Positions 25,489 through 45,669 of a stretch of DNA of 64,000 nt are shown piece by piece. Origin of the DNA: Patescibacteria group bacterium (lineage in GTDB: Bacteria > Patescibacteriota > Patescibacteriia > UBA9934). The stretch is taken from NCBI GenBank assembly GCA_041660165.1, contig JBAZWW010000003.1, positions 68,352 to 132,351 of the forward strand, given 5' to 3'. Made by a program: the position numbers and the translations under genes. The notes beneath the pieces are model-generated. The model did not search any database, was not told the DNA's origin, and was given only the letters and a program-made list of their open reading frames with translations. Position 1 is the stretch's first letter. Each line of letters opens with the position of its first letter.

Positions 25489-26367
25489 ATGCCTGCCAAG
25501 ATGCAAAAGATCCGCAAAGCCATTATTCCTGTGGCCGGAATGGGTACCCGTTTCCTACCCGCCACTAAGGCTCAGCCCAAGGAAATGTTGCCGGTGGTTG
25601 ATAAACCGGTGATCCAATATATTGTCGAGGAAGCCGTGGCAGCTGGTATCGAGGAGATCATTTTCGTTACCGCCATGGGCAAGCGGGCGCTTGAGGATCA
25701 CTTTGACAGAAACTTTGAGCTTGAATATCGCCTGGAACAGAAGCACAAGATGAAAGAGCTGGAGGCCATTGAAAAGATCGGCAAGCTGGCCAAGTTCGCC
25801 TTTGTTCGCCAGCAGAAACCGCTTGGGGATGGCCACGCCATCCTGGCCGCTGCGCCTTTTGTTGGGAAGGATGAGGCTGTGGCTGTGCTTTTTGGCGATG
25901 ACATTATTTCCGGCGGTCAGCCGGCCATTGGCGAGCTTATTTCTGCCTACGAACGGTTCGATGCTCCGATTGCGGCTATCCAAGAAGTCCCGCGCGACAA
26001 AATTTCAAGTTACGGGATTATTGATGGCGTGGAAATTGATGGCAACACCTGGGAAGTAAAGAAATTTGTGGAAAAGCCTGAGCCGGAAGATGCGCCGTCA
26101 AACCTTGGCATTGTTGGCCGTTATGTGATTACGCCAAAAATCTTTCAGTTGCTCGCCAAACAAAAGCCGGGGAAGGACGGTGAGATACGTCTGGCCGATG
26201 CTTTTATTACTCTCGTCGAGTCCGGCAAATCCATGTACGGCTACAAGTTTTCCGGCAATCGTTATGATTGTGGCAACAAATTACAGTTTATCATTGCGCA
26301 GATTGAGCTTGGACTTGAGCATCCTGAAGTGGGTGAAGGGCTGGCCGAGTATTTGAGAAACCGATAG
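25489..26367 (+). CDS. galU: UTP--glucose-1-phosphate uridylyltransferase
   Basis: KAIIPVAGMGTRFLPATKAQPKEMLPVVDKP signature. Confidence 0.9.
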   Translation: MPAKMQKIRKAIIPVAGMGTRFLPATKAQPKEMLPVVDKPVIQYIVEEAVAAGIEEIIFVTAMGKRALEDHFDRNFELEYRLEQKHKMKELEAIEKIGKLAKFAFVRQQKPLGDGHAILAAAPFVGKDEAVAVLFGDDIISGGQPAIGELISAYERFDAPIAAIQEVPRDKISSYGIIDGVEIDGNTWEVKKFVEKPEPEDAPSNLGIVGRYVITPKIFQLLAKQKPGKDGEIRLADAFITLVESGKSMYGYKFSGNRYDCGNKLQFIIAQIELGLEHPEVGEGLAEYLRNR

Positions 26368-26428: not shown

Positions 26429-27043
26429 ATGGCTCAGGATGGGAATAGGATCGACATGGCCACTTTTTCGACCATCCTGTTGCTTCTCTTCGCCATCTTT
26501 CTTACTTTTTTTGTTTTGCCGTTTGTATTTCTCTTGGCCACAAGCATCATCTGGAATGGCGCGCCGTTTGTGCCGGTGCCATCGAGGGCCGTGCCAGGGA
26601 TCGTTGAGGCCCTTTTTGCGACGAAGGGGTTTAGCATCGCCAAACCCGTACATGCGCAAAGGGCCGTGGTGTATGATATGGGCTGTGGCGATGGGCGAGT
26701 GTTATGCTCGGCTGTGCGCTCGAATCCCAATGTTCGAGCAGTAGGCATCGAGTGTGCCTTATTGCCATATGCGCTTGCCAGGATTCGAGCAAGAAATCTG
26801 CCGATTGAGATACGTCGAAAAGACTTTTTTCAGGAGGATCTTTCGCAGGCAACTCACGTGGTCACCTATCTCTTCCCTGAACTAATGGCTCGCGTCGAGC
26901 AGAAACTTGCCGTCGAGCTGAAGCCAGGGACTCGAGTAGTCGCCATCGACTTTCCTTTGCCAACCTGGAAACCGATTGAGGTTATAAAGCAAAAAGTGCC
27001 GGGACTGAAGAGGGGAACGAATCTGTATATTTATCAACTATGA
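26429..27043 (+). CDS. membrane-anchored SAM-dependent methyltransferase (alternative start 26456)
   Basis: N-terminal TM helix followed by VYDMGCGDGRV motif I; the stop overlaps the next gene. Confidence 0.5.
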   Translation: MAQDGNRIDMATFSTILLLLFAIFLTFFVLPFVFLLATSIIWNGAPFVPVPSRAVPGIVEALFATKGFSIAKPVHAQRAVVYDMGCGDGRVLCSAVRSNPNVRAVGIECALLPYALARIRARNLPIEIRRKDFFQEDLSQATHVVTYLFPELMARVEQKLAVELKPGTRVVAIDFPLPTWKPIEVIKQKVPGLKRGTNLYIYQL

Positions 27044-28425
27044 AAAGATTTTTCTCGATATTTCTCGTACTTTCCACACTCGTCACCCTTGGCGCAGGCT
27101 GTGGCGGGGGAGGCGGTACGGCTTCAACTGCTACAGAAAAGGTTACGCTCAAATTTTGGAGCGTTTTTGATCAGCAGGATGCTTATCGTGAACTTATAAC
27201 AAAGTATAAAGGCGCCCATCCGAATGTAGACATTCAATATCGAGTTTTCAGGCCGGAGGAATATGACAAAGAACTCATTCGGGCGCTGGCAGAAGGAACG
27301 GGGCCGGACATTTTTTCCGTTTCAAATTCGCGCGTGGGCGAGTTTCAGGGCCTTTTGAAACCCATGCCCACTACACTCAATGTGAGCTCTCTTGTGACGC
27401 AGGGAACTCTCCAGAAAAAGACGTCTCTTGTGGCAAAGCAAGAGTCAACACCCTCGCAAAAAGCTTTCAAACAGCAATTTGTTGACGTGGTGGCAAATGA
27501 CGTCATCATGAGCTATCAGCCAGACCCTAAGAAACCCGCGGAACAGCGCGTCTTTGGCGTGCCGTTTGCCGTGGACAACCTCGCCCTTTTTTATAACAAG
27601 GATCTTTTGAACTCTGCCGGTATTGCCCAGGTTCCCGCCAACTGGGATGATTTTCGCTCGGCCGTGCAGAAGCTGACAAAATATGACGCTACCGGGGGAG
27701 TGGCTCAGTCCGGCGCCGCCCTTGGCACGGGCAAGAATGTTGACCGCGCGTCTGACATTATTTCCGTGCTCATGATGCAAAACGGTGCGCCCATGGTGGA
27801 TGAGCGCGGTAAACCCGCCTTTGACACTATCCCGGCCGGAACACAGCGGGGAATTTTTCCAGGGCTTGATGCTGTGCGCTTCTACACGGATTTTGCAAAT
27901 CCCGTAAAGGACGTTTACACCTGGAATGATACGTTTCCGGGTTCAGTAACGGCCTTCTCACGGGGGCAGACTGCCTTCATGCTCGGCTATAGCTATGACG
28001 TAGCGGCGCTTCAGGCAGCGGCGCCAAAGCTGAACTACGCCATTGCCCCGCTCCCGCAGATTGCCGGCGGGAAACAGATGAACATTGCCAACTACTGGGT
28101 GCAGGGTGTTTCAAAAACCAGCAAATTTTCTGACTACGCTTGGAATTTCTTATTGTACGCCAGCAGTCCTGCAAACGTAACAAGCTATCTAGCAAAGTCC
28201 GGCAAGCCCACTGCTCTGCGGAGTTTGATTGGCACGCAGTCAACGGATGAGAAGATCAGCGTTTTTGCGGACCAGCTTCTGACCGCCAGCAGTTGGTACC
28301 ACGGCAAAGATGCAGTGGCTGCTGAAAAAGCCCTTACAGATCTGGCCGCTAACGTCCTTGCAGGAATCGATAAGCCTGAAGATGCTATTGGACAGGCTGT
28401 GAGAGTGGTCGGGCAGACGTATTAG
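27040..28425 (+). CDS. ABC transporter substrate-binding lipoprotein (family 1, sugar-type)
   Basis: Lipobox LGAGC followed by a Gly-rich linker; SBP_bac_1-like length and motifs. Confidence 0.75.
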   Translation: MKRFFSIFLVLSTLVTLGAGCGGGGGTASTATEKVTLKFWSVFDQQDAYRELITKYKGAHPNVDIQYRVFRPEEYDKELIRALAEGTGPDIFSVSNSRVGEFQGLLKPMPTTLNVSSLVTQGTLQKKTSLVAKQESTPSQKAFKQQFVDVVANDVIMSYQPDPKKPAEQRVFGVPFAVDNLALFYNKDLLNSAGIAQVPANWDDFRSAVQKLTKYDATGGVAQSGAALGTGKNVDRASDIISVLMMQNGAPMVDERGKPAFDTIPAGTQRGIFPGLDAVRFYTDFANPVKDVYTWNDTFPGSVTAFSRGQTAFMLGYSYDVAALQAAAPKLNYAIAPLPQIAGGKQMNIANYWVQGVSKTSKFSDYAWNFLLYASSPANVTSYLAKSGKPTALRSLIGTQSTDEKISVFADQLLTASSWYHGKDAVAAEKALTDLAANVLAGIDKPEDAIGQAVRVVGQTY

Positions 28426-28551
28426 CAAGCTCCCACCCCGACGTGAGGAGGGGTAGCGAGGAGGCAACCAATTCTACCCCTCGTCTCCTCGGGGTGGGAT
28501 GTTCAGGGTTGAACGATGGGTAGAAATGAACCGTGTTACAATACGTATGCT

Positions 28552-29094
28552 ATGCATCTAGCTCGTTCAGTTTTTGTTTCACTTTTCCTTGTCCTAGCCG
28601 GTGCCTGTTTTTTTTCGTCCGCCAAACCTGCCCAGGCCCAAACGGTAAGCGAGGGTTATACGCAGATCATGTCTCAGGGTTTGGTTTTTGGAAACATTTG
28701 TCCGGCTGATAAGACCGTGGCTTGTCCATGTAGAGACGATGGCACGTGCCAGCTTTCAGACATGCTCCAGATTTTTGTAAACTTGTCGATTGGCATTCTG
28801 GCGATTTCAGGCTCCGTTGCCCTTCTCATGTTTTTCTACGGTGGTTTCACCTGGGTGACAAGCATGGGAAATGCCAAGAATGTGGAAAAGGGTAAGGAGA
28901 TCATTACCCGCGCGGTCATTGGCCTGGCTATCATCTTTGGGGCGTACGCCTTTGTGAACTTTCTCATCTTTGCTATCTCGGATACAAAAACCCGCGGTGA
29001 TCTTCCCGGTGCTACCATTGAACAAACCATTGATAAATCCGTCACCGGCCAGGAAGGGGGAGCGCCGGCAGGAAACATTCTGAACACCCAATAA
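28552..29094 (+). CDS. TrbC/VirB2-like pilin-family protein (paralog 1)
   Basis: Signal peptide; Cys-rich N-terminal region; conserved C-terminus LLMFFYGGFTWVTSMGNAKNVEKGKEIITRAVIGLAIIFGAYAF. Confidence 0.65.
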   Translation: MHLARSVFVSLFLVLAGACFFSSAKPAQAQTVSEGYTQIMSQGLVFGNICPADKTVACPCRDDGTCQLSDMLQIFVNLSIGILAISGSVALLMFFYGGFTWVTSMGNAKNVEKGKEIITRAVIGLAIIFGAYAFVNFLIFAISDTKTRGDLPGATIEQTIDKSVTGQEGGAPAGNILNTQ

Positions 29095-29095
29095 T

Positions 29096-29713
29096 ATGAA
29101 GAAGCTATTATTTTTTCTCGTCTTCGGAGCACCCTTTCTTTTCCCCCTCTCGGCTTTAGCGAATTGTCGTTCTGTACTTGATTCATGCGTTGCCGCGTGT
29201 GGCTCAGATGGTCTCTGTAGTCTGGCCTGTAATGAGGCGTATTTAGGATCTGTTGCTACATATGCGCCGGATCCTGTGCCAAGCGGTCACAATGTTCAGG
29301 CCTGTGTTGACCCCGCTCCGCCCTCAACTCCTCCGCCTTCAAACGCATCTGCAAATCTGCCCTCAACTAATGGCACAACAACCTTGTCAGACGCAAACAA
29401 GCCAGTCACGCTCATCAATCCATTGGGCACCACGGATCCCCGGGAGATTATTGGAAACCTAATTAAGGCGGTCATCTCCATCATTGGTTCTATCACGCTT
29501 CTCATGTTTGTTTATGGGGGCGTGTTATGGATTACGTCCATGGGTGATGATAAGAAGGTGATGAAGGGCAAACAGATCCTGGTGTGGTGCGTGGCCGGGC
29601 TGGCCATCATTGCCGGCGCCTATGCGCTCACTAACGCGGTGATTAGCGGGCTGACCACGGGGAGCGTTATCCCCACCACTGCCACGGGAGGATCAACCAC
29701 ACCACAGCAATAA
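29096..29713 (+). CDS. TrbC/VirB2-like pilin-family protein (paralog 2)
   Basis: Signal peptide; Cys-rich N-terminus; IGNLIKAVISIIGSITLLMFVYGGVLWITSMGDDKKVMKGKQIL...AGAYALTNAV. Confidence 0.7.
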   Translation: MKKLLFFLVFGAPFLFPLSALANCRSVLDSCVAACGSDGLCSLACNEAYLGSVATYAPDPVPSGHNVQACVDPAPPSTPPPSNASANLPSTNGTTTLSDANKPVTLINPLGTTDPREIIGNLIKAVISIIGSITLLMFVYGGVLWITSMGDDKKVMKGKQILVWCVAGLAIIAGAYALTNAVISGLTTGSVIPTTATGGSTTPQQ

Positions 29714-29760
29714 TCCTGTGCTATACTTCTTTTAAGAAATTCACTATTTCTATTATTACT

Positions 29761-30171
29761 ATGGTGAAAGCAATCGTGCGGTTCGGGATGAGCGTTGCCT
29801 TGGGTCTGGCCATGTCACTCCCGTTTGTCCGCTTGGTTCCGTCTCTCATGCCGGTAGCCCACGCTCAACCGCTGGCTGCAGAAGACATTATCAATCCGCA
29901 GTTTGGCGACGCTACGGGTCTTGGCCAGGGAGATCTGAAACAGACCATTGGCAATTTGATCCGCGTGGCTCTTGGATTCCTGGGCGTGGTAGCAGTGGTC
30001 ATTGTTCTCTACGGTGGTTTCAAGTGGATGGTGGCCGGCGGTAATGATGAGAAGGTGGGCGAGGCTAAGAAGCTCATCATCTCCGGCATTATTGGTCTGG
30101 CTATCATTCTCTCAGCTTACGCCATCACCACGTTTGTCATCTCAAGCTTCATGACCGCCACCACAGCGTAG
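29761..30171 (+). CDS. TrbC/VirB2-like pilin-family protein (paralog 3)
   Basis: IGNLIRVALGFLGVVAVVIVLYGGFKWMVAGGNDEKVGEAKKLI...SAYAITTFV. Confidence 0.7.
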   Translation: MVKAIVRFGMSVALGLAMSLPFVRLVPSLMPVAHAQPLAAEDIINPQFGDATGLGQGDLKQTIGNLIRVALGFLGVVAVVIVLYGGFKWMVAGGNDEKVGEAKKLIISGIIGLAIILSAYAITTFVISSFMTATTA

Positions 30172-30225
30172 TTGTCTCCTATCGAACTCCGCATCTTTCT
30201 TCTGGAAAGGTGCGGAGACGATATG

Positions 30226-30639
30226 CGAAAACTGGCAGCCGCCGCCTTCCTGACCATGGCTTTTTTTGCACCGCTTCGTCAGTGCTTGGCCTTTAGCGTG
30301 AATGACACTGGTCTGGAAACAACGGCTTTTGCCGCTAAGTACAGTACAGGTGACAACGTAAAAAACATCGGTACATTCATTGGCTTTTATATTATTCAGC
30401 CGGTGCTAGGTATCTTGGGTCTCCTTTTCTTGGTTCTCATGATTTACGCCGGTGTTCTCTGGATGACCGCTTCCGGCAATGAAAAGCGTGTACAGAAAGC
30501 AAAAGACATTTTGATCGCTGCCGTTATTGGCGCCACCATTATTGTGGGTGCATACGCAATCACAAATGCCCTCTTTAGTGCACTTTCTTCGGGATCTATT
30601 ACCGGTGCGCCCGCCACTACCTCCACTCCAACGCCTTAA
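30226..30639 (+). CDS. TrbC/VirB2-like pilin-family protein (paralog 4; ORF opens at 30172)
   Basis: LMIYAGVLWMTASGNEKRVQKAKDILIAAVIGATIIVGAYAITNAL. Confidence 0.65.
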   Translation, partial: RKLAAAAFLTMAFFAPLRQCLAFSVNDTGLETTAFAAKYSTGDNVKNIGTFIGFYIIQPVLGILGLLFLVLMIYAGVLWMTASGNEKRVQKAKDILIAAVIGATIIVGAYAITNALFSALSSGSITGAPATTSTPTP

Positions 30640-30644
30640 ACTCT

Positions 30645-30986
30645 ATGCCTTTTACTACCGGGCTTTCTGACGCAGCTACGGGTAATTATTCCACCACGCA
30701 AACGCTTGGCCAGCTGATTGGCATGCTGATTAGCGCCGTGCTTGGCATCCTTGGTGTAATTTTGCTGGTTCTTGTGGTCTATGCCGGATTTCTTTGGATG
30801 ACCGCAGCCGGTGATGACAAGAAAATTAAGAAGGCTAAAGATATTCTTGCATCCGCGGTTGTGGGTATGATTATTGTGGTGGCCTCTTACTCTATTTCTA
30901 CGTTTGTTATTGGTGCTTTGCAGGGGACAACAAACGGAGCGAACAATACTTCTAATCAGAATATGGTGAATCAACAGCAACCGTAG
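30645..30986 (+). CDS. TrbC/VirB2-like pilin-family protein (paralog 5)
   Basis: LGQLIGMLISAVLGILGVILLVLVVYAGFLWMTAAGDDKKIKKAKDIL. Confidence 0.7.
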   Translation: MPFTTGLSDAATGNYSTTQTLGQLIGMLISAVLGILGVILLVLVVYAGFLWMTAAGDDKKIKKAKDILASAVVGMIIVVASYSISTFVIGALQGTTNGANNTSNQNMVNQQQP

Positions 30987-31036
30987 GCAGTTAGGTTTTT
31001 AATGGTGTATACTCTCAGTAAGAATTAATTATAACT

Positions 31037-31411
31037 ATGAACAAGCTCAAGCAATTGGTTATCGGTACCGCAATCGCTGTTATGCCTTTCAGCGCCGTGG
31101 CCCTTACGGTGCACGCCGCGGATCTCACTTCACAGTTGAGCGACGTAAACCAGACTGCAGGGTTTGGAACAAAGACCCCGCAGGAAACCATTGGTCAGCT
31201 TATCAGCGTATTCCTGGGCGTGCTTGGTATCGTCTTCTTGCTTCTCACTATTTACGCCGGTTTCCTCTGGATGACGGCGGCTGGTGATGACAAGAAAGTT
31301 GCTTCCGCCAAGAACATCCTTATCTCAGCGGTAGTTGGACTGGTGGTTATTCTCTCTGCTTACGCTATCAGCAGTTTCGTGATCCAACAGCTTCAGACAG
31401 CAACAACGTAA
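31037..31411 (+). CDS. TrbC/VirB2-like pilin-family protein (paralog 6)
   Basis: IGQLISVFLGVLGIVFLLLTIYAGFLWMTAAGDDKKVASAKNIL. Confidence 0.7.
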   Translation: MNKLKQLVIGTAIAVMPFSAVALTVHAADLTSQLSDVNQTAGFGTKTPQETIGQLISVFLGVLGIVFLLLTIYAGFLWMTAAGDDKKVASAKNILISAVVGLVVILSAYAISSFVIQQLQTATT

Positions 31412-31426
31412 ATTTTCTTAGAAGGA

Positions 31427-31474
31427 AATGCCCCCGAGGTCCTGTTAGACAGGACGAAGGGGCATTTTGTTTTG
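31427..31474 (+). terminator. rho-independent terminator ending the pilin array
   Basis: AAATGCCCC...GGGGCATTT stem with a nested hairpin, followed by TTGTTTTG. Confidence 0.6.
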
Positions 31475-31538: not shown

Positions 31539-32177
31539 TTAGAGGCAGGATTGCCCGAGAGTAATCCAGAAGTGGTTGCCCGGGGCCTTGGGCTCGTAGT
31601 GGAGGTCCATTGTGCCCGTCATGGGCTGGGGCCGGCACTGGCGTCCCTGCAGGAGGTCGAACACGAAGTTCGTGTCCGCATTGAGCGCCTTCATGGGCAT
31701 CTTGGTGCCCTCCACCCACAAGGCGTCCACGTTCCACGTGGCGGAGGTCTCATAGACCGTGCCCTTCACCACAACCCGTCCATCGGTGACGCCGAGTTTG
31801 ACCCAGGCGTCCCCGAAGGGGAGGCAGGGAGCAGGCTCGCCGTCCGCGTTGATCACGGTGACGGAGGCGTATACGCCGCTGCGCGGATCGAGCCCGATGA
31901 CCACCGGCAGTGCTCCGCCCGTGATGTCCGGGGTGGTGCACGTACCGCGGTTGGGGTTCGTCACCTTGATGAGGCTGGTCAGCTTGTCACAGCCGTCCGG
32001 CCAATCAAGGAGGTAGACGCCCTCTTCGATGTTGTTGTGACCGCCTTCGCACTGCGGTTTCTTGAACCGCAGGTCCGTGTGCAGGTCGCTTGACCCGCGG
32101 TAGACGGCCACTTCCTTCGCGATGGCGGACGTGGTGACGGCCAGAACGGCGGCGACGATTCCAATGTAGCGGAACAT
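31539..32177 (-). CDS. secreted Cys-containing hypothetical protein (within the GC-rich island)
   Basis: Signal peptide MFRYIGIVAAVLAVTTSAIA; high GC3; antisense ORFs judged spurious. Confidence 0.5.
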   Translation of the reverse strand: MFRYIGIVAAVLAVTTSAIAKEVAVYRGSSDLHTDLRFKKPQCEGGHNNIEEGVYLLDWPDGCDKLTSLIKVTNPNRGTCTTPDITGGALPVVIGLDPRSGVYASVTVINADGEPAPCLPFGDAWVKLGVTDGRVVVKGTVYETSATWNVDALWVEGTKMPMKALNADTNFVFDLLQGRQCRPQPMTGTMDLHYEPKAPGNHFWITLGQSCL

Positions 32178-32350
32178 GATGCCTCCAAGGGGTGCGGATT
32201 TCAGCGAGACATGACGGAGAGCTTATGGGCCTTCCGTCCTGTCTGCAGTAGATCCGGCCTCCCCTCAATGAAGAAGGGAGACACGGGAGCCTCGCGTGTG
32301 GGCTCATCGATGACGTACCGTAGGGACGAGGCTCGGCCTCGTCCTTGTCG

Positions 32351-33109
32351 TTACGGTTTTTCGGCCGGTGTGGGCGTGGCCAGGGTGGCCCCGATCTTGG
32401 CGGCGGCCGTCTGCACGTCCGCCACTGAGGACCCGAGGTCGGCCTGACCGAGCGCCTCTGCGTCGATCTTGGCCTGTTCCTCGGGCGTCACGGGTACGCC
32501 GTCGGGCTTGTCCGCTAGCGTGCCGGTGTCTGGGATGGTGCCGGTCTTGGGCGTACGGCCGTAGAGGTCTCCGCGGAAGTCTGCGATGACCCCGCTTCCG
32601 CCGTACCTGTAACCACCGGCGCCGAAGCTGGAACCACGGCCGTTGCTCGTGACCGCCGTCGCCAGCGCCACGTCCGTACCAACGGCGAACGTGTCGCCGC
32701 TGATGAACACGGGCCGGCCGGACGAGATCGCGCTCGTCACCGCCGAACTGCGCGTCTGCGCGTCCGTGAACGCGGGCAGGATCTGCACGCTGGCGATCGT
32801 GACGTTCGCGCTGGTCCGCGCGAGCTCCACGCGCTCGTCGCTCTGGATGCGGGCGAGGGCGATGGTCCGATCGGCGCACTGCGTGGCGAACTTGGTGCCG
32901 GCACGCGTGGTCGTGTGAGACGGCTCCAGCGTGACGCCGGCGCAGTCGCCGTAGAACGTCGCCCGGCCCACGTTCGGCCCGTTTTGCGGGTCGGCCGTGG
33001 TGGCGGTGCTGACCGGGCCCCAGTTCGGTGCCGGGGTGGCCGTGGCGTCCTGGGCCATGGCGGACCCGGAAGCCAGAGTGAAAAGAATCGAAACCAGATA
33101 CTTGCGCAT
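32351..33109 (-). CDS. secreted hypothetical protein (within the GC-rich island)
   Basis: Signal peptide MRKYLVSILFTLASGSAMA; Thr/Ala-rich; high GC3. Confidence 0.5.
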   Translation of the reverse strand: MRKYLVSILFTLASGSAMAQDATATPAPNWGPVSTATTADPQNGPNVGRATFYGDCAGVTLEPSHTTTRAGTKFATQCADRTIALARIQSDERVELARTSANVTIASVQILPAFTDAQTRSSAVTSAISSGRPVFISGDTFAVGTDVALATAVTSNGRGSSFGAGGYRYGGSGVIADFRGDLYGRTPKTGTIPDTGTLADKPDGVPVTPEEQAKIDAEALGQADLGSSVADVQTAAAKIGATLATPTPAEKP

Positions 33110-33243
33110 GTTTACCTCGCGCTTGGGTGGTCGGTCCTAGGCTCAGCAATCGGACAGTCCGACGGCTTTGCCCAGACCCTTTAGAATAGCAAAAAAATGG
33201 GTTTTTGTCAATGTTTCAAAGAGGGTGTTTCTTGGCTAATCTA

Positions 33244-33272
33244 TTGACATTTTTGAAAATTTGGGGTATTCT
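33244..33272 (+). promoter_or_regulatory. sigma70-like promoter (TTGACA-17-TATTCT) in the AT-rich divergent region
   Basis: TTGACA at 33244-33249 and TATTCT at 33267-33272; the only AT-rich stretch in the island. Confidence 0.45.
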
Positions 33273-33338
33273 CTTTTGTCTTCCTCCCCGTGCTTGCACA
33301 AGGAGGAATGACCGTCTTGGTTAGGAATACCGTTCAAC

Positions 33339-35129
33339 ATGGGGCAACGGCAAAGCCGATCCCCGGAGGAAATGATCATGCGTCGTACCCGAAATGCCGG
33401 TACCCCGGCTCTCACTCCCGGTCAGGAGCGTGCTTCTGACCTGTGGGATCGAATCGTTGATCTGCGGTTCCTCCCGGGCCGTACGATCCGCGGTCGCGCG
33501 CCGGTTCGCGGTCCGGAGATCGTGGATCGCCCGACAGAGATCCAGGTGCTCAACTGGATCATGCTCAACTGGCTCCCTGGCAATCAGGGGGTCTTGAGCC
33601 TGCTCCCGGACATGACGGTGCCGGATGCGGGAGTGGGGAATTTCGACGTGGATACTCTGTTCCGCGTGCGCGACCCTGATCCCGTTCCACCCGCCGTGGA
33701 CACTCGGCCCACCCCCGCAGAGCGCGAAGCCGCCACCCAGGCGATTTACGCACTGCTGGACGGTCCGTTTGCCCCGTTCGAGCAGGCACTCCGCGCAGGC
33801 GGAACCCCGGCCATCCCGTGGTGGCTTCGGCCCTGGTTCGAAGGTCTGGACTTCGTGGATGACCACCTGACTGTGGCCAGCCAGGCGTTCTTGCCCCAAT
33901 GGAGGCTGGTTCTCGGGGCTCTTCGCGGAGTGGGCGGATTCGCGGGCATGTTCACGCTCGGGTTCGTTGGAGCCACGCTGGCCGTTCTCTGTGCGGGGAT
34001 GCCGTTCGTGGCCTTCATCTTGTTCCTGGGCGTGCTCTTCCTCGGTCGGCGCGCTCTCGGCCGGATCTGGGGATGGATCACGGGCGCTGCGGATTGGATC
34101 GTGGAACAGCCGGCGCGTATCTGGAACGCCATGTTCCCCGCGCTCGTGACGTCCCTGACACCGCCTCCCAGGCCTCCGACCGACCCCAACTTCGTGGAGG
34201 GCGTGTCGGATCTGTCGCCCATCGAGCGTCGTGTCATCGGGCGTCGGAACGCATGGGGTGTGGTGGCTGCCGTTATCTTCGGCGGTATCCCGTTCGCCTA
34301 CGGCATCATCATGTCCACGATCGGCCTGTACCACATCTACGAGCCGATCGCGGCTGGTGCCGTGAACCCTGTGTTTGAAGGCCTTGGCAACGGGGCATTC
34401 AACCCGGCATCGTTCAACCTGAACTACTATATGTTCATGGTTGAAATCTCCCGGTACATCCTGATGATTACGGAAGTCATTACGATGAGTGCCTGGGGGG
34501 TTCCGCGTATCCGTGAGTTCGACAACAACCTCGCTGACGGCACCGTGGTGGCTCATCCGACGGATTTCCGTCGCTTGATCGAGCGGTTTGGTCTTCTCAT
34601 GGTGTGGTTCCGCCTGGGTGCGTCCGGTCGATTCCGTCCGCACTTCATCACGATCTGCATCATCGTCGACTCCATCGCTGTTCTGCTGAATGGGTACGTA
34701 TACCCTATTCATCACACGGCTCAGGGGTGGGCCTGGTCCTCGACGTTGTTGACTTGGTGGTTGATCCTCATCATTAACGTGGGCATTCGCTTCGGCGGGT
34801 GGTTCAACTTCAATGATCGGGAGAAGCTCGTCAAGTCGCTTACGGGGTACCTGTTCACTGGCCTGGGTGCTCCGCTCGCCGTCATGCTGGTCATGGGGTT
34901 CCTTCCCCCCCGGCACGGTGATGACGTGATGACGCTGGCGCAGACGGCCGGTGGCAACGCGATGGTTGCCGCTAGCAACTACGTGGGCCCGGCAAAGCTC
35001 GATCGCCCGCCCGTCCTTCCGCGCCCCGAGTGCGCGAATGCGAAGGCCAAGGTGGCCGTGCTCGAAGCCAAGATCCCTGGCATCTGCCTGCGGAACCCCG
35101 GAAAGGTTCCCTGTAGCTGCCCGAAGTAG
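33339..35129 (+). CDS. large polytopic membrane protein (at least 8 TM) of unknown function, high GC
   Basis: Multiple hydrophobic helices (e.g. FAGMFTLGFVGATLAVLCAGMPFVAFILFLGVLFLG, WAWSSTLLTWWLILIINVGI); the antisense 614-aa ORF is R/H/D-rich junk. Confidence 0.55.
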   Translation: MGQRQSRSPEEMIMRRTRNAGTPALTPGQERASDLWDRIVDLRFLPGRTIRGRAPVRGPEIVDRPTEIQVLNWIMLNWLPGNQGVLSLLPDMTVPDAGVGNFDVDTLFRVRDPDPVPPAVDTRPTPAEREAATQAIYALLDGPFAPFEQALRAGGTPAIPWWLRPWFEGLDFVDDHLTVASQAFLPQWRLVLGALRGVGGFAGMFTLGFVGATLAVLCAGMPFVAFILFLGVLFLGRRALGRIWGWITGAADWIVEQPARIWNAMFPALVTSLTPPPRPPTDPNFVEGVSDLSPIERRVIGRRNAWGVVAAVIFGGIPFAYGIIMSTIGLYHIYEPIAAGAVNPVFEGLGNGAFNPASFNLNYYMFMVEISRYILMITEVITMSAWGVPRIREFDNNLADGTVVAHPTDFRRLIERFGLLMVWFRLGASGRFRPHFITICIIVDSIAVLLNGYVYPIHHTAQGWAWSSTLLTWWLILIINVGIRFGGWFNFNDREKLVKSLTGYLFTGLGAPLAVMLVMGFLPPRHGDDVMTLAQTAGGNAMVAASNYVGPAKLDRPPVLPRPECANAKAKVAVLEAKIPGICLRNPGKVPCSCPK

Positions 35130-35226
35130 GTCCTGCCCGTAGGGGAAACGGGAAGGGCCTCGCAACGGCCGGATGACATGAGCAGAAATGCTTATGACAA
35201 CCGGTCGTTTTCTAATTTAGAGAGAG

Positions 35227-36675
35227 GTGGGTTATACTTTCCCCATGTCTTCAGCCCTCGCCAAAAACTCAGCTTTACAGGTAGGGGGAAAGCTTCTCGG
35301 CACCCTTTTTGGCCTAGTGACTTTTTATTTACTTCTTCAGTATTTCGGAACTGCAGGCTACGGGCTGATCACGACAGCCATCACCTACGTGACAATTTTT
35401 GGCGTAATTGTTGATTTTGGCCTGACGCTCACTACCACGCAGATGATTTCTGAGCACGGGGCCAATGAGGAAAAGATTTTGGGGAACTTGCTGGCGCTTC
35501 GCGTGCTTACGGCATTGGTCTTTCTTTCTATCGCCCCAATTTCCGCCATCTTTGTTCCCGGCGTGAAGGACGTCCTTGTCCTAGTCTCAATTATTACGGC
35601 TACCACGTTCTTCGCTTCCGTGGCGCAGACATTCATTGGCGTTTTTCAGAAGCGCCTCGCCCTTGGCATCCCTGTTCTTGGAGAAATGCTGAACCGCTTG
35701 GTGGCGCTTGTCCTTATCATTCTAGTTGGTACCGCACATTTAGGGCTGGCCGCTTCGGCGGTTGCCTTTACCATTGGCAATTTTGTACAGTTTGCGCTCA
35801 TGCTTCTTGGCACGGCCCGTTACGTGAAACTTCGTCCCCGGCTGGAATGGAAAGTATGGCGAGAGATAATCGTGCGGAGCTGGCCGATTGGCGTGTCTAT
35901 TTTCTTTAACCTTTTGTACTTGAAGGGCGATATTTTGTTCATGGCTTTTTTCCACCGGAGTTTCACGGAAATTGGCCAGTACGGTTCTGCATATAAGGTG
36001 GTGGATGTAATGACCATGATTCCTGTGACGTTTATGGGTCTCATGCTCCCGCTTCTCTCCGTTGCCTGGAGCGAGAAGAACCGAGAGAAATTCGATCGTC
36101 ATTTACAACAGACGTTTGATATCTTTGCCATGATCGCTATTCCGTTTGCGGTCGGCTCTATTCTCCTTGGCGTACCGGTTATGACCGCCGTGAAGCCTGA
36201 TCTTATTCTGGCCGGCCAAGTGCTGAGCGTGCTTGGCCCCGCCTCCGCCGTAGTGTTTTTCAATTCGCTCTACGGCCACGCGGTAGTGGCTGTGAAGCGC
36301 CAGCGTGTTATGCTATTAGGCTACTGTTTTGTGGCCGTGGTTGCCATTTTGGGCTACGTTCTTTACATTCCTCTTTACGGCGCCTGGGCCGCCGCCTGGG
36401 TAACGCTTATTTCAGAGTCATTGATTGGCCTGTGTTCATTTGCTGTCGTTGCTTCCGCTACTAGGCGCTGGCCTAACCTTCTCTCTCTTGGCCGAGCATT
36501 GATCGCTACGGCAGTCATGTCCGCCTCGATTCTCCTCATTCCTGGTCTTCCTATTCTGGTCGAGCTACCACTCGCTATCATGGTGTACGCTCTCGCCCTC
36601 GTGGCTCTTGGGGGTCCAAAACCCAAGCACGTGATGGCCCTGTTTATGCCTGATAAGCCATCCGTCGAGGTTTGA
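35227..36675 (+). CDS. Wzx-type polysaccharide flippase (MOP superfamily)
   Basis: 482 aa, about 12-14 TM helices; polysaccharide-biosynthesis-protein-like N-terminus. Confidence 0.7.
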   Translation: MGYTFPMSSALAKNSALQVGGKLLGTLFGLVTFYLLLQYFGTAGYGLITTAITYVTIFGVIVDFGLTLTTTQMISEHGANEEKILGNLLALRVLTALVFLSIAPISAIFVPGVKDVLVLVSIITATTFFASVAQTFIGVFQKRLALGIPVLGEMLNRLVALVLIILVGTAHLGLAASAVAFTIGNFVQFALMLLGTARYVKLRPRLEWKVWREIIVRSWPIGVSIFFNLLYLKGDILFMAFFHRSFTEIGQYGSAYKVVDVMTMIPVTFMGLMLPLLSVAWSEKNREKFDRHLQQTFDIFAMIAIPFAVGSILLGVPVMTAVKPDLILAGQVLSVLGPASAVVFFNSLYGHAVVAVKRQRVMLLGYCFVAVVAILGYVLYIPLYGAWAAAWVTLISESLIGLCSFAVVASATRRWPNLLSLGRALIATAVMSASILLIPGLPILVELPLAIMVYALALVALGGPKPKHVMALFMPDKPSVEV

Positions 36676-36822
36676 GTGTCCGGTCCTACTCCGACGACAG
36701 GAGGAGTAGCCTTGGATGCCATTGGATAAGGATTCTGACAAATTACAGTAAGCCAATTCTATCCCTCGCTTTGCTCGGGATGGGATCCATCGGCTCGGGG
36801 TGGGAAGTTAGAAATACACGCT

Positions 36823-38031
36823 ATGCCGAAGTTCAAAGACTTTCTCATTCTTCTCTTGGCCGTTTTGCCAACTTATCTTTTGCGTTTTCATCTTGGGCCG
36901 GTGCCAACTACTGTGCTCGAAATATATATATTGTTGATTATTGGGTACTGGTTTATTTTTGAGCAGGGTTATCGGTTAGATTTCTTGCGAACAATGGGCG
37001 CGTACCGGGTGCCATTCCTACTTCTCCTCGCTACTTCATGTTTTGCCGTGGCCGTGGCGCCGGATCCGATCTCGGCACTCGGCACCTGGAAGGCATTTTA
37101 TGTCGAGCCGATTTTGTTGTTTTTCGTTTTTCGTTCAACGTTCCTCGCGCGCGAGGATTGGACGCTCGCCCTTGGCGCTCTTGGCATCTCGGTGATTTCT
37201 ATTTCGATCTTTGCCGTTTTCCAACGAGTGACGGGCCTCGGCATTCCGGTGCCATGGGATATCGAGCTTCGAGCAACCTCGATCTTTGATTTCCCGAACG
37301 CCGTTGGCTTATTTGTCGGTCCGGCGGTTGCCGTGTTTGTCGTGCTCGCTGTAGACAAGGCTCGAGCACTCCGGGAACGAGTATTTTTCGGCATCTCAGC
37401 CATGTTCGGTGTCATCGCGATTGTTCTCTCGCAAACCGAGGCGCTATTCATTGCCTTGCCGGTAGCGTTTCTGTTCTCGCTTTTGCTGTCGAGCGCCCCG
37501 AAGAAGCTCAAGCTCGGCATCATTGGCGCGAGCATTTTCCTTGGCGTCATCGCCTTTGCGGGCAGTTCGACCGTTCGTGAGAAGCTGCTGCTTGAAGACC
37601 TTTCCGGTCAGGTTCGCCGTTCACAGTGGACGGAAACACTCGCCCTTCTAAAAGATCATCCCATTTTTGGCGCTGGCCTCCAGGGCTATCCCGCTGTTTT
37701 TGCTAAGTACCATGACCCGCGTCTGTACGAAATCTTCCAGTACCCGCATAACATTTTGCTGAATTTTTGGGTTGAGCTTGGCTTCCTTGGCGTGATCACG
37801 CTCGTTGTTTTCATTCTTTCAGTTCTTCAGGTGACATATATGCGCCGGACAGACATTTTTAGCCTCGTAGCCTTTGCCGGACTCGCCACCATGTGTATCC
37901 ACGGTCTGGTTGATGTGCCATTTTTCAAGAATGATCTGGCGGTACTGACGGTGTTCTTGTTGGCCCTGAGCTCGACCTCCTCTGGCTCCTCCTTGGAAAG
38001 GAGGAGGATCACTTATGACCCTGATCTATAA
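36823..38031 (+). CDS. O-antigen ligase/polymerase-like (Wzy_C) membrane protein
   Basis: Multi-TM with a central periplasmic loop; motifs SQTEALFIALP and FGAGLQGY; the C-terminal tail SSLERRR is encoded by the hairpin at 37987-38007. Confidence 0.65.
   Translation: MPKFKDFLILLLAVLPTYLLRFHLGPVPTTVLEIYILLIIGYWFIFEQGYRLDFLRTMGAYRVPFLLLLATSCFAVAVAPDPISALGTWKAFYVEPILLFFVFRSTFLAREDWTLALGALGISVISISIFAVFQRVTGLGIPVPWDIELRATSIFDFPNAVGLFVGPAVAVFVVLAVDKARALRERVFFGISAMFGVIAIVLSQTEALFIALPVAFLFSLLLSSAPKKLKLGIIGASIFLGVIAFAGSSTVREKLLLEDLSGQVRRSQWTETLALLKDHPIFGAGLQGYPAVFAKYHDPRLYEIFQYPHNILLNFWVELGFLGVITLVVFILSVLQVTYMRRTDIFSLVAFAGLATMCIHGLVDVPFFKNDLAVLTVFLLALSSTSSGSSLERRRITYDPDL
37987..38007. repeat. palindromic hairpin CTCCTCC-TTGGAAA-GGAGGAG (family A variant, left flank of DUF559 gene 1)
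   Basis: Perfect 7-bp stem; loop identical to the 63561-63577 copy upstream of the second DUF559 gene. Confidence 0.6.
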
Positions 38032-45207: not shown

Positions 45208-45669
45208 ATGAAAGGCTATCGCCCCAACGCAGGCATCATTGTGACGGACGGCAAAGGCCATGTGCTCATGTGCGAGCGCACGGATTTGAAATATGAGGGG
45301 ACATGGCAGACACCCCAGGGCGGGATTGATCCCGGGGAGACGGGGAGAGATACGGCGGTGCGCGAGCTTGGCGAGGAACTCGGCCTGGCGCCGGAAGAAT
45401 TCGATATTCTGGCGGAATCAACGCAGAAGTTTCGTTACGAGTGGCCGGAAAGCTATCAGATGATGAATCCATTACGAGAGTTTCGGGGCCAAGAACAGCA
45501 GTTTTTCCTAGCGCAAGTCCATCCGGGCGTGGAGTTTTATCTTGATTCTGCTGGTCATGGGGAATTCAGACGGGTAATGTGGGGGAGCCCGCAGGACTTG
45601 CTCAGCAAATGCTGGGAACCCAAGCGTCCGGGGCTTGAGTCTGCTATGAAAGAGTTTGGCCTTTTATGA
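45208..45669 (+). CDS. NUDIX hydrolase (RppH-like)
   Basis: Start at MKGYRPNAGIIV; Nudix box GGIDPGETGRDTAVRELGEELGL. Confidence 0.7.
   Translation: MKGYRPNAGIIVTDGKGHVLMCERTDLKYEGTWQTPQGGIDPGETGRDTAVRELGEELGLAPEEFDILAESTQKFRYEWPESYQMMNPLREFRGQEQQFFLAQVHPGVEFYLDSAGHGEFRRVMWGSPQDLLSKCWEPKRPGLESAMKEFGLL

What the first reader, a model, noticed from the sequence alone, without database searches (positions are those of the whole stretch)
28516..31474. An array of six tandem TrbC/VirB2-like pilin paralogs
Six consecutive small secreted proteins share the C-terminal hairpin signature IGxLI…L(L/M)x(I/V)Y(A/G)G(F/V)LWMT(A/S)(A/S)G(D/N)(D/E)KK(V/I)xKAKxIL…AYA(I/L)(T/S). The first two add Cys-rich N-terminal domains. 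This family is characteristic of Patescibacteria, where the pilin-like proteins are suspected to mediate host-cell attachment or DNA uptake. No VirB4 or VirB6 is visible in the window.
Basis: partly seen in the sequence, partly recalled or inferred. Interest (0 to 1): 0.55.

Follow-up and report, generated by a model that had tools for sequence, protein, structure and literature searches.

The report
Six-gene VirB2-like pilin array, Patescibacteria
Six neighbouring genes in an ultrasmall (Patescibacteria) bacterium encode diverged copies of a small membrane-hairpin protein of the type IV secretion pilin family; such arrays are already described in this group, so this is a well-preserved new example, not a new kind of system.

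Summary
Six same-strand ORFs (28516-31411) share a C-terminal two-helix hairpin. All six pass Pfam PF18895 (T4SS_pilin). Two also pass NCBIfam NF045849, a pilin-like conjugal transfer protein of monoderm mobile elements. A family profile matches a Firmicute protein encoded beside VirB6-, VirB3- and VirB4-like genes (hhalign 97.8%) and, weakly but specifically, genuine VirB2/TrbC (72.8%; reversed controls below 1%).

No VirB4, VirB6, VirB3 or VirD4 gene is in the window, about 7 kb to its left, or within 10 kb of 80 related loci.

Such arrays are published: 441 arrays of 2-11 genes in Patescibacteria, and an essential six-pilin array in Southlakia epibionticum.

This analysis adds four points:
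- The six paralogs are old, and their order is kept in 15 of 23 related six-gene arrays.
- Cys-rich extended members sit first.
- A lipoprotein solute-binding protein lies directly upstream in 34 of 49 related arrays.
- Pilin 5 has no signal peptide.

Most likely the genes encode major and minor subunits of a T4SS-dependent surface conduit used in host contact. Assembly is inferred, not shown. Verdict: new member of a known kind, modest interest.

The parts
28516..29094 (+). Pilin 1 (192 aa), the first-position type. It has a signal peptide (predicted cleavage after ...KPAQA), then an N-terminal ectodomain with Cys62/70/72/78, then the hairpin at residues 89-150 and a 40-aa C-terminal tail.
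   Evidence: PF18895 scores 30.6 bits against a cut-off of 26.6. Cys72 is kept in 95% and Cys78 in 88% of 43 first-position orthologs. Same-rank orthologs beat the other paralogs by up to 137 bits.
29096..29713 (+). Pilin 2 (205 aa). It has a signal peptide (..LSALA|NC), a six-Cys segment, a Pro/Ser/Thr-rich linker, the hairpin at residues 115-181 and a Thr/Ser/Pro-rich tail.
   Evidence: PF18895 scores 35.7 bits. The start codon lies 1 nt after the pilin 1 stop. The Cys positions are not conserved among second-position orthologs.
29761..30171 (+). Pilin 3 (136 aa). It is the most conserved paralog across genomes and is preceded by a 47-nt AT-rich spacer containing TGCTATACT.
   Evidence: PF18895 scores 40.8 bits. 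Same-rank orthologs are 57-87% identical in the colinear six-gene arrays, the highest of the six ranks.
30223..30639 (+). Pilin 4 (138 aa from ATG 30223; the open frame begins at TTG 30172, directly after the pilin 3 stop). Signal peptide MRKLAAAAFLTMAFFAPLRQCLA|FS.
   Evidence: PF18895 scores 31.2 bits. Public gene calls give 138 aa. NF045849 scores 32.1 bits, below the cut-off of 40.
30645..30986 (+). Pilin 5 (113 aa). It has no signal peptide and begins with the mature-type N-terminus (MPFTTGLSDAAT...).
   Evidence: PF18895 scores 39.1 bits. NF045849 scores 47.0 bits against a cut-off of 40. The rank-5 protein also lacks a signal peptide in 7 of the 14 related six-gene arrays printed (L003, L005-L008, L011, L063).
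31037..31411 (+). Pilin 6 (124 aa), the last-position type and the best match to both family models. Signal peptide ...ALTVHA|AD. It is preceded by a 50-nt AT-rich spacer with a TATACT -10-like hexamer.
   Evidence: PF18895 scores 47.2 bits and NF045849 scores 47.7 bits. The AF2 model has pLDDT 80, with helices at 3-22, 30-40, 48-80 and 85-123. A promoter-like site lies at 30984-31013.
27040..28425 (+). Family-1 solute-binding protein of the carbohydrate type (461 aa) with a lipoprotein-like signal (..TLGAG|C). It lies directly upstream of the array on the same strand and is its likely operon partner. No ABC permease gene is in the window.
   Evidence: SBP_bac_1 at E 3e-27. Only sub-threshold matches to named sugar-binding proteins (for the method, for this protein). 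An ortholog sits immediately upstream on the same strand in 34 of 49 related arrays, with a median gap of 1 nt, and in 19 of 25 arrays whose downstream synteny is lost. 39 of 47 orthologs have a lipobox.
25489..26367 (+). GalU (UTP-glucose-1-phosphate uridylyltransferase), a conserved second upstream neighbour.
   Evidence: TIGR01099 galU scores 350 bits against a cut-off of 327. An ortholog lies within three genes upstream in 31 of 49 related arrays.
28431..28500 (+). Very stable GC-rich RNA hairpin between the solute-binding protein stop and the pilin 1 start, with no U-tract. It could be an attenuator or a processing or stability element.
   Evidence: MFE is -51.3 kcal/mol, z = -4.97, and 0 of 200 shuffles fold as well. 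There is no Rfam match.
29719..29727 (+). TGCTATACT, an extended -10-like motif 33 nt before the pilin 3 ATG. It is a candidate internal promoter.
   Evidence: TGNTATACT occurs 5 times in the window against 0.44 expected, and 0 of 100 shuffles reach 5.
31539..35129 (.). Three fast-evolving neighbours with no family assignment: two secreted proteins on the - strand (31539-32177 and 32351-33109) and a 583-aa polytopic membrane protein on the + strand (33378-35129). GC is 0.63-0.70 against about 0.50 for the pilin genes. Any relation to the array is unproven.
   Evidence: No Pfam or NCBIfam hits. Genes of the same size sit at the same positions in two relatives, L003 and the P0005 contig; orthology with L003 is supported for the 211-aa protein (E 9e-8) and the 583-aa protein (E 3e-14) but not for the 251-aa protein (E 1.9). 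Only 4 representatives among 1.84 billion proteins. There is no similarity to a VirB6-like protein.
35245..38031 (+). Polysaccharide flippase (Polysacc_synt) and a Wzy_C / O-antigen-ligase-like membrane protein. These are envelope-glycan genes downstream of the array in the closer relatives.
   Evidence: Pfam E 6e-19 for each. One or the other is present in 12 of 29 related loci that have at least 8 kb downstream.

Best explanation
The six genes encode six anciently diverged, non-redundant paralogs of the VirB2-like pilin of the monoderm-type type IV secretion system (T4SS) of Patescibacteria.

Shown here:
- Each protein carries the family's hairpin: two long hydrophobic helices joined by a short charged loop, G-D/N-D/E-K-K-V-x-K-A-K.
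- Five of the six have a cleavable-looking signal peptide.
- Variable N-terminal segments and Ser/Thr/Pro-rich C-terminal tails flank the hairpin.

Inferred from what is established for VirB2, TraA and PrgF:
- The proteins insert into the cytoplasmic membrane with both ends outside and the basic loop inside.
- A VirB4/VirB6 machine encoded elsewhere in the genome extracts them and polymerises them into a short pilus or envelope-spanning conduit. The loop lines its lumen, and the variable ends decorate its surface.

The fixed gene order, the Cys-rich extended proteins at positions 1-2 and the highly conserved short proteins at positions 3-6 suggest a division of labour. Positions 1-2 would be minor, tip or adhesive subunits, and one or more of positions 3-6 would be the major structural subunit. 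The array is probably co-transcribed with a surface-anchored solute-binding lipoprotein. This fits the published idea that the structure serves contact with, and uptake from, a host cell.
For: Family assignment:
- All six exceed the PF18895 cut-off.
- Pilins 5 and 6 exceed the NF045849 cut-off of 40, at 47.0 and 47.7 bits. That is higher than a genuine Firmicute member, which scores 42.3.

Link to T4SS:
- The family profile matches the Pontibacillus pilin-like protein at hhalign 97.8%, E 9e-13.
- That gene is followed by a second PF18895-like gene, a TrbL/VirB6-like 779-aa protein, a PrgI/TraL-like protein, a VirB4 of the CD1110 family and a peptidoglycan hydrolase.
- The profile match to six genuine VirB2/TrbC proteins is 72.8%, E 3e-5, over the whole hairpin. 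Reversed-sequence controls give 0.5-0.8%.

Topology:
- Hydropathy and the AF2 model (pLDDT 80) show a signal-peptide helix plus two long helices, 48-80 and 85-123, with a four-residue turn.

Non-redundancy:
- Paralogs are 32-54% identical, and DNA similarity is limited to short stretches of 69-92% identity.
- The order 1-2-3-4-5-6 is kept in 15 of 23 related six-gene arrays, with same-rank best hits at margins up to 139 bits.
- Cysteines before the first helix are enriched at ranks 1-3 (means 3.6, 4.5 and 2.1) against about 0.4 at ranks 4-9, across 64 arrays.

Literature:
- 441 such arrays are reported in Patescibacteria. A pilin gene lies near virB4 in only 1135 of 1948 assemblies (PMC12102498).
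- The six-pilin array of S. epibionticum is essential for epibiotic growth (PMC12857230).
- PrgF of pCF10 shows that monoderm VirB2-like proteins are essential, with genetic and labelling evidence for a pilus whose lumen is lined by the loop (bioRxiv 10.64898/2025.12.18.695078).
Against: - No VirB4, VirB6, VirB3 or T4CP gene is in the 64-kb window, about 7 kb further left, or within 10 kb of any of the 83 loci holding the array or a relative (L001-L083). This was tested with Pfam and with jackhmmer from Firmicute seeds. The functional coupling to a T4SS in this lineage is therefore inferred only.
- The TrbC Pfam model is not reached.
- A profile search of all PDB sequences finds no solved pilin.
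- Foldseek gives only nonspecific helical hairpins, all at E above 1.
- PrgF is not detectably similar, at 2.2%.
- No pilus has been seen in any Patescibacterium.
- The constant neighbours are envelope and sugar genes (solute-binding protein, GalU, flippase, Wzy_C), not secretion genes.
Confidence: 0.65

Rival explanations
1. The array is a T4SS-independent envelope module. The hairpin proteins stay in the membrane and work with the co-transcribed solute-binding lipoprotein and the neighbouring glycan genes. They might serve as a scaffold or channel for nutrient capture, or as anchors for surface structures. In this lineage they would no longer depend on VirB4/VirB6.
For: - The solute-binding protein is immediately upstream in 34 of 49 arrays, with a median gap of 1 nt. 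It is retained in 19 of 25 arrays whose downstream synteny is lost.
- No ABC permease gene is in the window.
- No T4SS gene lies within 10 kb of any of the 83 loci.
- In 17 related loci the same hairpin is used as the N-terminal module of proteins of about 580-1000 aa and of giant proteins up to 3469 aa. There it looks like a membrane anchor.
Against: - The closest relatives outside the phylum sit inside a canonical VirB6/VirB3/VirB4 cluster.
- In S. epibionticum the array lies in the T4SS locus, and both are essential.
- About 58% of Patescibacteria assemblies with a pilin and a VirB4 have the two genes close together.
- The conserved basic loop and the hairpin geometry are those of polymerising pilins.
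Confidence: 0.17
2. The array is an antigenic or host-range variation cassette. The six genes would be interchangeable alternative major pilins, expressed one at a time to adapt to different hosts or to evade host defences. This has been proposed for Bartonella and Anaplasma VirB2 paralogs and suggested for Patescibacteria.
For: - The parts predicted to be exposed, the N-terminal segments and C-terminal tails, are highly variable.
- Promoter-like elements lie before pilin 3 and pilin 6.
- PMC12102498 suggests this reading.
Against: - The paralogs are old, and each has its own ortholog at the same position in many species, with margins up to 139 bits. This is the pattern of subfunctionalised subunits, not of a rapidly turning-over cassette.
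- There is no sign of recent duplication or gene conversion at the DNA level.
- The tight spacing of 0-5 nt between several genes argues for co-expression.
Confidence: 0.1
3. The proteins belong to an unrelated small two-helix membrane family, such as holin-like, stress-response or type IV pilus pilins, and are mislabelled by a weak domain model.
For: - The hairpin is short and hydrophobic.
- Several unrelated families give marginal hits: FixQ, DUF898 and DUF6112 at E 1e-4 to 0.03.
- Foldseek cannot discriminate such hairpins.
Against: - All six pass the PF18895 threshold, and no other family does.
- The directional hhalign control, 72.8% against below 1% for reversed sequences, shows the match is not merely compositional.
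- The match to a T4SS-embedded Firmicute homolog is 97.8%.
- There is no type IV prepilin motif (G|F/M-T-L-x-E) at any N-terminus (direct reading).
Confidence: 0.03

Closest known systems
VirB2-like pilin arrays of Patescibacteria: the essential six-pilin array of Ca. Southlakia epibionticum ML1, the 'Sec secreted array' of TM7x, and 441 arrays in 383 assemblies (PMC12102498, PMC12857230)
   Same: - Same Pfam family (PF18895).
- Same tandem layout, and the number of genes (six) equals that in ML1.
- Same low identity between members: here 32-54% local, against a published mean of 25% and maximum of 54%.
- Same phylum.
   Different: - Here the array is not in or near a T4SS locus. It is preceded by a solute-binding lipoprotein and GalU.
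- The lineage is Uhrbacteria-like (Parcubacteria group). The published arrays are most abundant in Saccharimonadia and Microgenomatia.
- Positional orthology, Cys-rich first members and a member without a signal peptide were found here. The passages read do not mention them.
NCBIfam NF045849, the Mbov_0395 / ICE_MMCAP2_0565 family of pilin-like conjugal transfer proteins in monoderm mobile elements. Example: WP_207531472 on Pontibacillus plasmid NZ_CP062975.
   Same: - Shared core motif: IY(A/S)GF..T..GD.KK...AK.
- hhalign 97.8%.
- Pilins 5 and 6 exceed the family cut-off.
- The Firmicute example also has a second tandem paralog.
   Different: - The Firmicute genes lie directly upstream of VirB6-, VirB3- and VirB4-like genes on a mobile element. 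Here six copies are chromosomal and unlinked to such genes.
- Pilins 1-4 score below the cut-off, at 11-33 bits.
VirB2/TrbC pilins of diderm MPF_T systems (Pfam PF04956), for example A. tumefaciens VirB2
   Same: - Small size and a signal peptide.
- Two hydrophobic helices with a short charged loop.
- Profile-profile alignment over the whole hairpin at 72.8%, E 3e-5.
   Different: - The PF04956 threshold is not reached.
- There is no evidence for cyclisation.
- The organism is a monoderm, and no adjacent virB genes are present.
- Several paralogs are present instead of a single major pilin.
PrgF(B2) of E. faecalis pCF10, the experimentally characterised monoderm VirB2-like protein (bioRxiv 10.64898/2025.12.18.695078)
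   Same: - Predicted two-helix hairpin with a charged loop in a monoderm.
- Like pilin 5, it has no signal peptide.
- It shows that such proteins can be essential for T4SS function in a monoderm, with genetic and labelling evidence for a pilus.
   Different: - No detectable sequence or profile similarity, at 2.2%.
- PrgF is a single 75-aa gene next to prgH (the VirB6 homolog).
Minor and major pilin gene sets of type IV pili and type II secretion (fimU-pilVWXE, gspGHIJK). This is a functional analogy only.
   Same: An ordered, conserved set of diverged paralogs sharing one membrane-embedded assembly module, with larger members that carry extra domains.
   Different: - Unrelated fold and signal.
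- There is no class III signal peptide here.
- This comparison is an analogy made from general knowledge. It was not tested.

Membership tests
Pfam PF18895 T4SS_pilin | Whole-protein score at or above the gathering cut-off of 26.6 bits | tested here: met
   The six score 30.6, 35.7, 40.8, 31.2, 39.1 and 47.2 bits. Public precomputed annotation agrees.
NCBIfam NF045849 (Mbov_0395 family pilin-like conjugal transfer protein) | Score at or above the curated cut-off of 40 bits | tested here: inconclusive
   Met by pilin 5 (47.0) and pilin 6 (47.7). Not met by pilin 3 (33.0), pilin 4 (32.1), pilin 2 (19.2) or pilin 1 (11.2).
VirB2/TrbC pilins (PF04956) | Sequence membership: Pfam gathering cut-off of 27.9 bits | tested here: not met
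   Only pilin 1 (14.5 bits) and pilin 2 (12.6 bits) give any match.
VirB2/TrbC pilins (PF04956) | Remote homology by profile-profile comparison with genuine VirB2/TrbC proteins | tested here: inconclusive
   hhalign gives 72.8%, E 3.2e-5, over 64 columns spanning both helices. Reversed controls give 0.5-0.8%. The result is supportive but below the usual 90-95% level.
VirB2/TrbC pilins (PF04956) | Small preprotein with a signal peptide and two hydrophobic helices joined by a short charged cytoplasmic loop | tested here: met
   Shown by hydropathy and by the AF2 helices at 48-80 and 85-123. The loop is G-D-D-K-K-V-x-x-A-K. Pilin 5 lacks the signal peptide.
VirB2/TrbC pilins (PF04956) | Encoded with VirB4, VirB6 and VirB3 of the same machine | tested here: not met
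   None are in the window, none about 7 kb further left, and none in the 83 loci (L001-L083) or the window by jackhmmer. The rest of the genome could not be searched.
VirB2/TrbC pilins (PF04956) | Polymerises into a helical pilus with the loop lining the lumen | not testable with these tools
Patescibacteria VirB2-like pilin arrays (PMC12102498) | At least two PF18895/PF04956 genes in tandem, or separated by one gene, in a Patescibacteria genome | tested here: met
   Six genes lie in tandem. The taxon comes from NCBI's name for the identical protein and from the nearest relatives.
Patescibacteria VirB2-like pilin arrays (PMC12102498) | Members strongly diverged from one another (published mean 25%, maximum 54% identity) | tested here: met
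   Local identity is 32-54%. Identity of the other five members to pilin 1 is 31-37%.
Patescibacteria VirB2-like pilin arrays (PMC12102498) | A VirB4 of the Patescibacteria/MPF_FATA clade is present in the same genome | not testable with these tools
   Only the window and about 7 kb to its left could be read.
Type IV pilus pilins (PilA-like) | Class III signal peptide with G|(F/M)xxxE and a single N-terminal hydrophobic helix | tested here: not met
   No such motif is present, and each protein has two C-terminal helices instead (direct reading).

The most novel reading that the evidence does not exclude
In the Uhrbacteria/Magasanikbacteria-type lineages, the solute-binding lipoprotein and the ordered set of six VirB2-like paralogs form one conserved operon. 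It would build a heteromeric surface filament or conduit. Cys-rich minor subunits would sit at the tip, a conserved major subunit would form the shaft, and the binding protein would dock to it. The structure would be specialised for capturing or importing host-derived sugars, not for exporting DNA or protein. That would make it a T4SS-derived uptake organelle, physically and genetically separated from its ATPase genes.
Probability: 0.15. Interest if true: 0.7.

Novelty: new member of a known kind. Interest (0 to 1): 0.3.

Why it matters
Patescibacteria make up a large share of bacterial diversity, and most appear to live attached to other cells. In the one tractable species, the T4SS and its six-pilin array are essential for that lifestyle, yet what the structure is and what passes through it remain unknown.

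This locus does not change that picture. It does give a clean, well-conserved example outside Saccharimonadia, with three testable leads:
- The six paralogs are positionally orthologous across species. This argues for a multi-subunit structure over interchangeable variants.
- The family's nearest relatives sit inside monoderm conjugation clusters. This suggests the pilins came with the MPF_FATA-type machine and were not borrowed from diderm systems.
- The array is persistently linked to a lipoprotein solute-binding protein. This gives a concrete handle on the 'uptake conduit' hypothesis.

Tried and rejected
- **Solved pilin structures.** A profile search of all PDB chain sequences gave no VirB2, TraA or TrbC hit. 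The only hits were spurious repeat matches to designed 'Pizza' proteins.
- **The 583-aa polytopic protein (33378-35129) as a hidden VirB6.** Rejected for lack of evidence:
  - no Pfam hit even at E 10;
  - no NCBIfam hit;
  - only self found by the word-indexed search;
  - four representatives in 1.84 billion proteins;
  - hhalign 1.5% against a TrbL/VirB6-like Firmicute protein.
- **The GC-rich block 31.5-35.1 kb as a recent foreign insertion.** Rejected. Genes of matching size sit at the same positions in two relatives, L003 and the P0005 contig. Weak but significant similarity to L003 was found for two of the three proteins.
- **The 2696-aa ORF (3243-11333) as a giant pilin fusion like those in relatives.** Rejected. 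It has no pilin module and no BLAST similarity to them.
- **Recent duplication or gene conversion.** Rejected.
- **Phage origin.** Rejected. There are no significant PHROG hits.
- **Similarity to PrgF of pCF10.** Not detectable.
- **Rfam.** Nothing relevant in 26-36 kb.
- **Walking beyond the window to find VirB4.** Only about 7 kb was gained on the left and nothing on the right, with no T4SS genes.

Full report

Yes. Listing ORFs in 26-34 kb shows six consecutive + strand ORFs:
- 28516-29094
- 29096-29713
- 29761-30171
- 30172-30639
- 30645-30986
- 31037-31411

They are separated by 1, 47, 0, 5 and 50 nt. Public gene calls on two independent assemblies that carry the identical locus give the same six genes. 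The fourth starts at ATG 30223, giving 138 aa.

The six align over a C-terminal block of about 75 residues, with invariant G, Y, G, W, G, K, G and Y. Pairwise local identity is 32-54%, with alignment scores of 133-252. Shuffled controls give a mean of 33 and a maximum of 53. A profile HMM of the family finds these six ORFs and nothing else among all ORFs of at least 40 aa in the window.

The Cys-rich N-terminal parts of the first two proteins are there. One detail needs correction: pilin 5 has no signal peptide.

**2. What family is it?**

All six exceed the gathering threshold of Pfam PF18895 'Type IV secretion system pilin'. The classical TrbC/VirB2 model (PF04956) gives only sub-threshold matches. 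No phage family matches.

NCBIfam adds a more informative relative. Pilins 5 and 6 exceed the curated cut-off of NF045849, 'Mbov_0395 family pilin-like conjugal transfer protein', a family defined on monoderm mobile elements.

A tblastn search of plasmids led to one such protein in Pontibacillus. Its gene is followed, in order, by:
- a second PF18895-like gene
- a 779-aa TrbL/VirB6-like protein
- a PrgI/TraL-like protein
- a 274-aa protein with no family match
- a VirB4 of the CD1110 family
- a large peptidoglycan hydrolase

The profile of the window's family (alignment A2, 48 sequences) matches that protein at hhalign probability 97.8%, E 9e-13.

I also built an alignment of six annotated VirB2/TrbC proteins taken from MPF_T plasmids, each flanked by VirB1-type and VirB3 genes. 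Against it the profile gives 72.8%, E 3e-5, over the whole hairpin. Reversed-sequence controls give 0.5-0.8%.

So the family is a genuine relative of T4SS pilin-like proteins. It is close to the monoderm type and only distantly related to diderm VirB2. Three tests were uninformative:
- PrgF of pCF10 is not detectably similar.
- No solved pilin is found by sequence.
- No solved pilin is found by Foldseek.

**3. Anatomy**

The AF2 model of pilin 6 (pLDDT 80) has a signal-peptide helix (3-22), a short helix (30-40) and two long helices (48-80 and 85-123) joined by a four-residue turn. The conserved charged stretch GDDKKVxxAK follows the turn.

By the positive-inside rule, and by analogy with VirB2, TraA and PrgF, both termini would be outside and the loop cytoplasmic. 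In a pilus the loop would line the lumen. This is inference.

The exposed parts are the variable ones: the N-terminal segments and the Ser/Thr/Pro-rich C-terminal tails.

**4. Comparative genomics**

A scan of one genome per species found at least 597 stretches that encode relatives, and 80 loci were kept. The records that carry an informative name are Uhrbacteria, Magasanikbacteria, Falkowbacteria, Buchananbacteria or 'Patescibacteria group'. Many records are titled 'uncultured Gammaproteobacteria', which is evidently a submission placeholder.

*Array size.* 61 of the 80 related loci (L004-L083) carry tandem runs of 3-11 pilin genes, most often six.

*Order.* The order of the window's six paralogs is conserved. 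In 15 of 23 related six-gene arrays (L003-L083), each member's best match among the window's six is the paralog of the same rank, with margins up to 139 bits. Pilin 3 orthologs are the most conserved, up to 87% identity.

*Cysteines.* Cysteines before the first helix concentrate at ranks 1-3, with means of 3.6, 4.5 and 2.1, against about 0.4 at ranks 4-9. The first-position orthologs keep a Cx5C pair just before the hairpin in 88-95% of cases.

*Age.* The DNA shows no recent duplication.

This pattern fits subfunctionalised subunits of one structure. It argues against a fast-turnover variation cassette.

**5. Neighbours**

No VirB4, VirB6, VirB3 or VirD4 gene was found in any of these places:
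- the window
- about 7 kb beyond its left end; contigs end at the right
- the recurrent neighbour families of the 80 loci
- a jackhmmer search from Firmicute seeds across all ORFs of the loci and the window

Instead, a family-1 solute-binding protein lies immediately upstream.
- It is on the same strand in 34 of 49 arrays that have enough upstream sequence, with a median gap of 1 nt.
- It has a lipobox in 39 of 47 cases.
- It persists in 19 of 25 arrays whose downstream synteny with the window is lost.
- It is usually preceded by GalU.

A flippase and a Wzy_C protein follow in the closer relatives.

The three GC-rich genes just downstream (31539-35129) have counterparts of the same size at the same positions in two relatives. 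They evolve very fast and have no family assignment. I found no support for the idea that the polytopic one is a VirB6.

**6. Comparison with the literature**

Quinonero-Coronel et al. 2025 (PMC12102498) report:
- VirB2-like pilins in 1948 Patescibacteria assemblies that also have VirB4
- a pilin gene near virB4 in 1135 of them
- 441 arrays of 2-11 pilin genes, with a mean identity of 25% and a maximum of 54%

The 2025 FEMS review (PMC12857230) describes the six-pilin array in the S. epibionticum T4SS locus as essential. It speculates on a pilus acting as a conduit for uptake from the host.

A December 2025 preprint shows that monoderm T4SSs do have VirB2-like proteins. PrgF is essential, and its loop lines the lumen.

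The finding is therefore a new member of a known kind. The passages I read do not mention the following features; PMC12102498 was term-searched for the binding-protein link and the fusions only:
- the linkage to a solute-binding protein
- the positional orthology
- the Cys-rich-first polarity
- the giant pilin fusions in relatives

The strong match to a Firmicute T4SS-embedded homolog also bears on that paper's suggestion that the pilins were co-opted from diderm systems.

**7. Mechanism and confidence**

I am confident (about 0.85) that the six proteins are members of the T4SS pilin-like family. I am less confident (about 0.6) that, in this organism, they are assembled by a distantly encoded VirB4/VirB6 machine into a heteromeric pilus or conduit.

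The main rival is a T4SS-independent envelope role together with the solute-binding protein. It cannot be excluded, because no secretion gene is linked to this type of array in any of the 83 loci holding the array or a relative (L001-L083). The decisive tests are listed under next steps.

Noticed in passing
Related loci L014, L015, L024, L029, L035, L038, L041, L046, L047, L050, L054, L056, L058, L068, L070, L072, L080 (not in the window): In 17 related genomes the pilin module (signal peptide plus hairpin, residues about 10-140) forms the N-terminus of very large proteins. In 16 of them two such genes are adjacent: one protein of about 580-1000 aa and one giant, up to 3469 aa, with the giant ORF running into the contig end in several loci. 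A signal peptidase I gene, HisRS, S21 and YqeY usually lie upstream. The C-terminal extension should be extracellular.
   Followed up: partly
window 27040-28425 and 49 related loci: A lipoprotein family-1 solute-binding protein sits immediately upstream of the pilin array in 34 of 49 related arrays, usually after GalU. No ABC permease gene is in the window. This linkage is not mentioned in PMC12102498.
   Followed up: yes
window 28431-28500: An unusually stable GC-rich hairpin (-51.3 kcal/mol, z -4.97) lies between the solute-binding protein gene and pilin 1, with no U-tract and no Rfam match. It cannot be conserved in L003, where that gap is only about 20 nt.
   Followed up: partly
window 2587, 29719, 43267 (-), 52671 (-), 53079 (-): TGNTATACT, mostly TGCTATACT, occurs 5 times against 0.44 expected. 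At least three of the sites lie just upstream of gene starts. It is probably this organism's extended -10 promoter consensus.
   Followed up: partly
window 31539-35165: Three genes have GC of 0.63-0.70 in a genome of about 0.50. Long ORFs are open on both strands at 33.3-35.2 kb (596 aa on + and 614 aa on -). The products have no known family and evolve very fast, yet genes of the same size sit at the same positions in two relatives.
   Followed up: partly
window 26456-27043: A 195-aa protein with a hydrophobic N-terminal segment lies between GalU and the solute-binding protein. It resembles archaeal protein-lysine N-methyltransferases (NF041081, E 1e-23, below the cut-off). A similar-sized protein at the same position clustered with it in only one other related locus (L010).
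   Followed up: no
window 3243-11333: A 2696-aa secreted protein has no Pfam match and a Pro/Ala/Glu-rich C-terminus. Two further unassigned ORFs follow it (11348-12064 and 12070-13302). It is not related to the pilin-fused giants of relatives.
   Followed up: partly
window 47701-50798: Two adjacent genes match the ATP-citrate lyase subunits (Citrate_bind with the ATP-grasp domain, and CoA-ligase with the citrate synthase domain). This is an unexpected central-carbon enzyme for a Patescibacterium. A CofD gene lies next to them at 45666-46553.
   Followed up: no
loci L004, L008, L010-L014 and many others (record titles): Dozens of MAG records whose gene content and pilin arrays are clearly Patescibacteria-like are titled 'uncultured Gammaproteobacteria bacterium'. 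One each is titled Kapaibacterium, Acutalibacteraceae and Lysobacteraceae. These are probably mislabelled or placeholder taxonomy.
   Followed up: no
L084 (Pontibacillus plasmid NZ_CP062975, 351801-358115): A Firmicute T4SS cluster has two tandem PF18895-type pilin-like genes directly upstream of VirB6-, VirB3- and VirB4-like genes. So PF18895-type pilins are part of monoderm MPF_FATA-type systems. This bears on the origin of the Patescibacteria pilins.
   Followed up: yes
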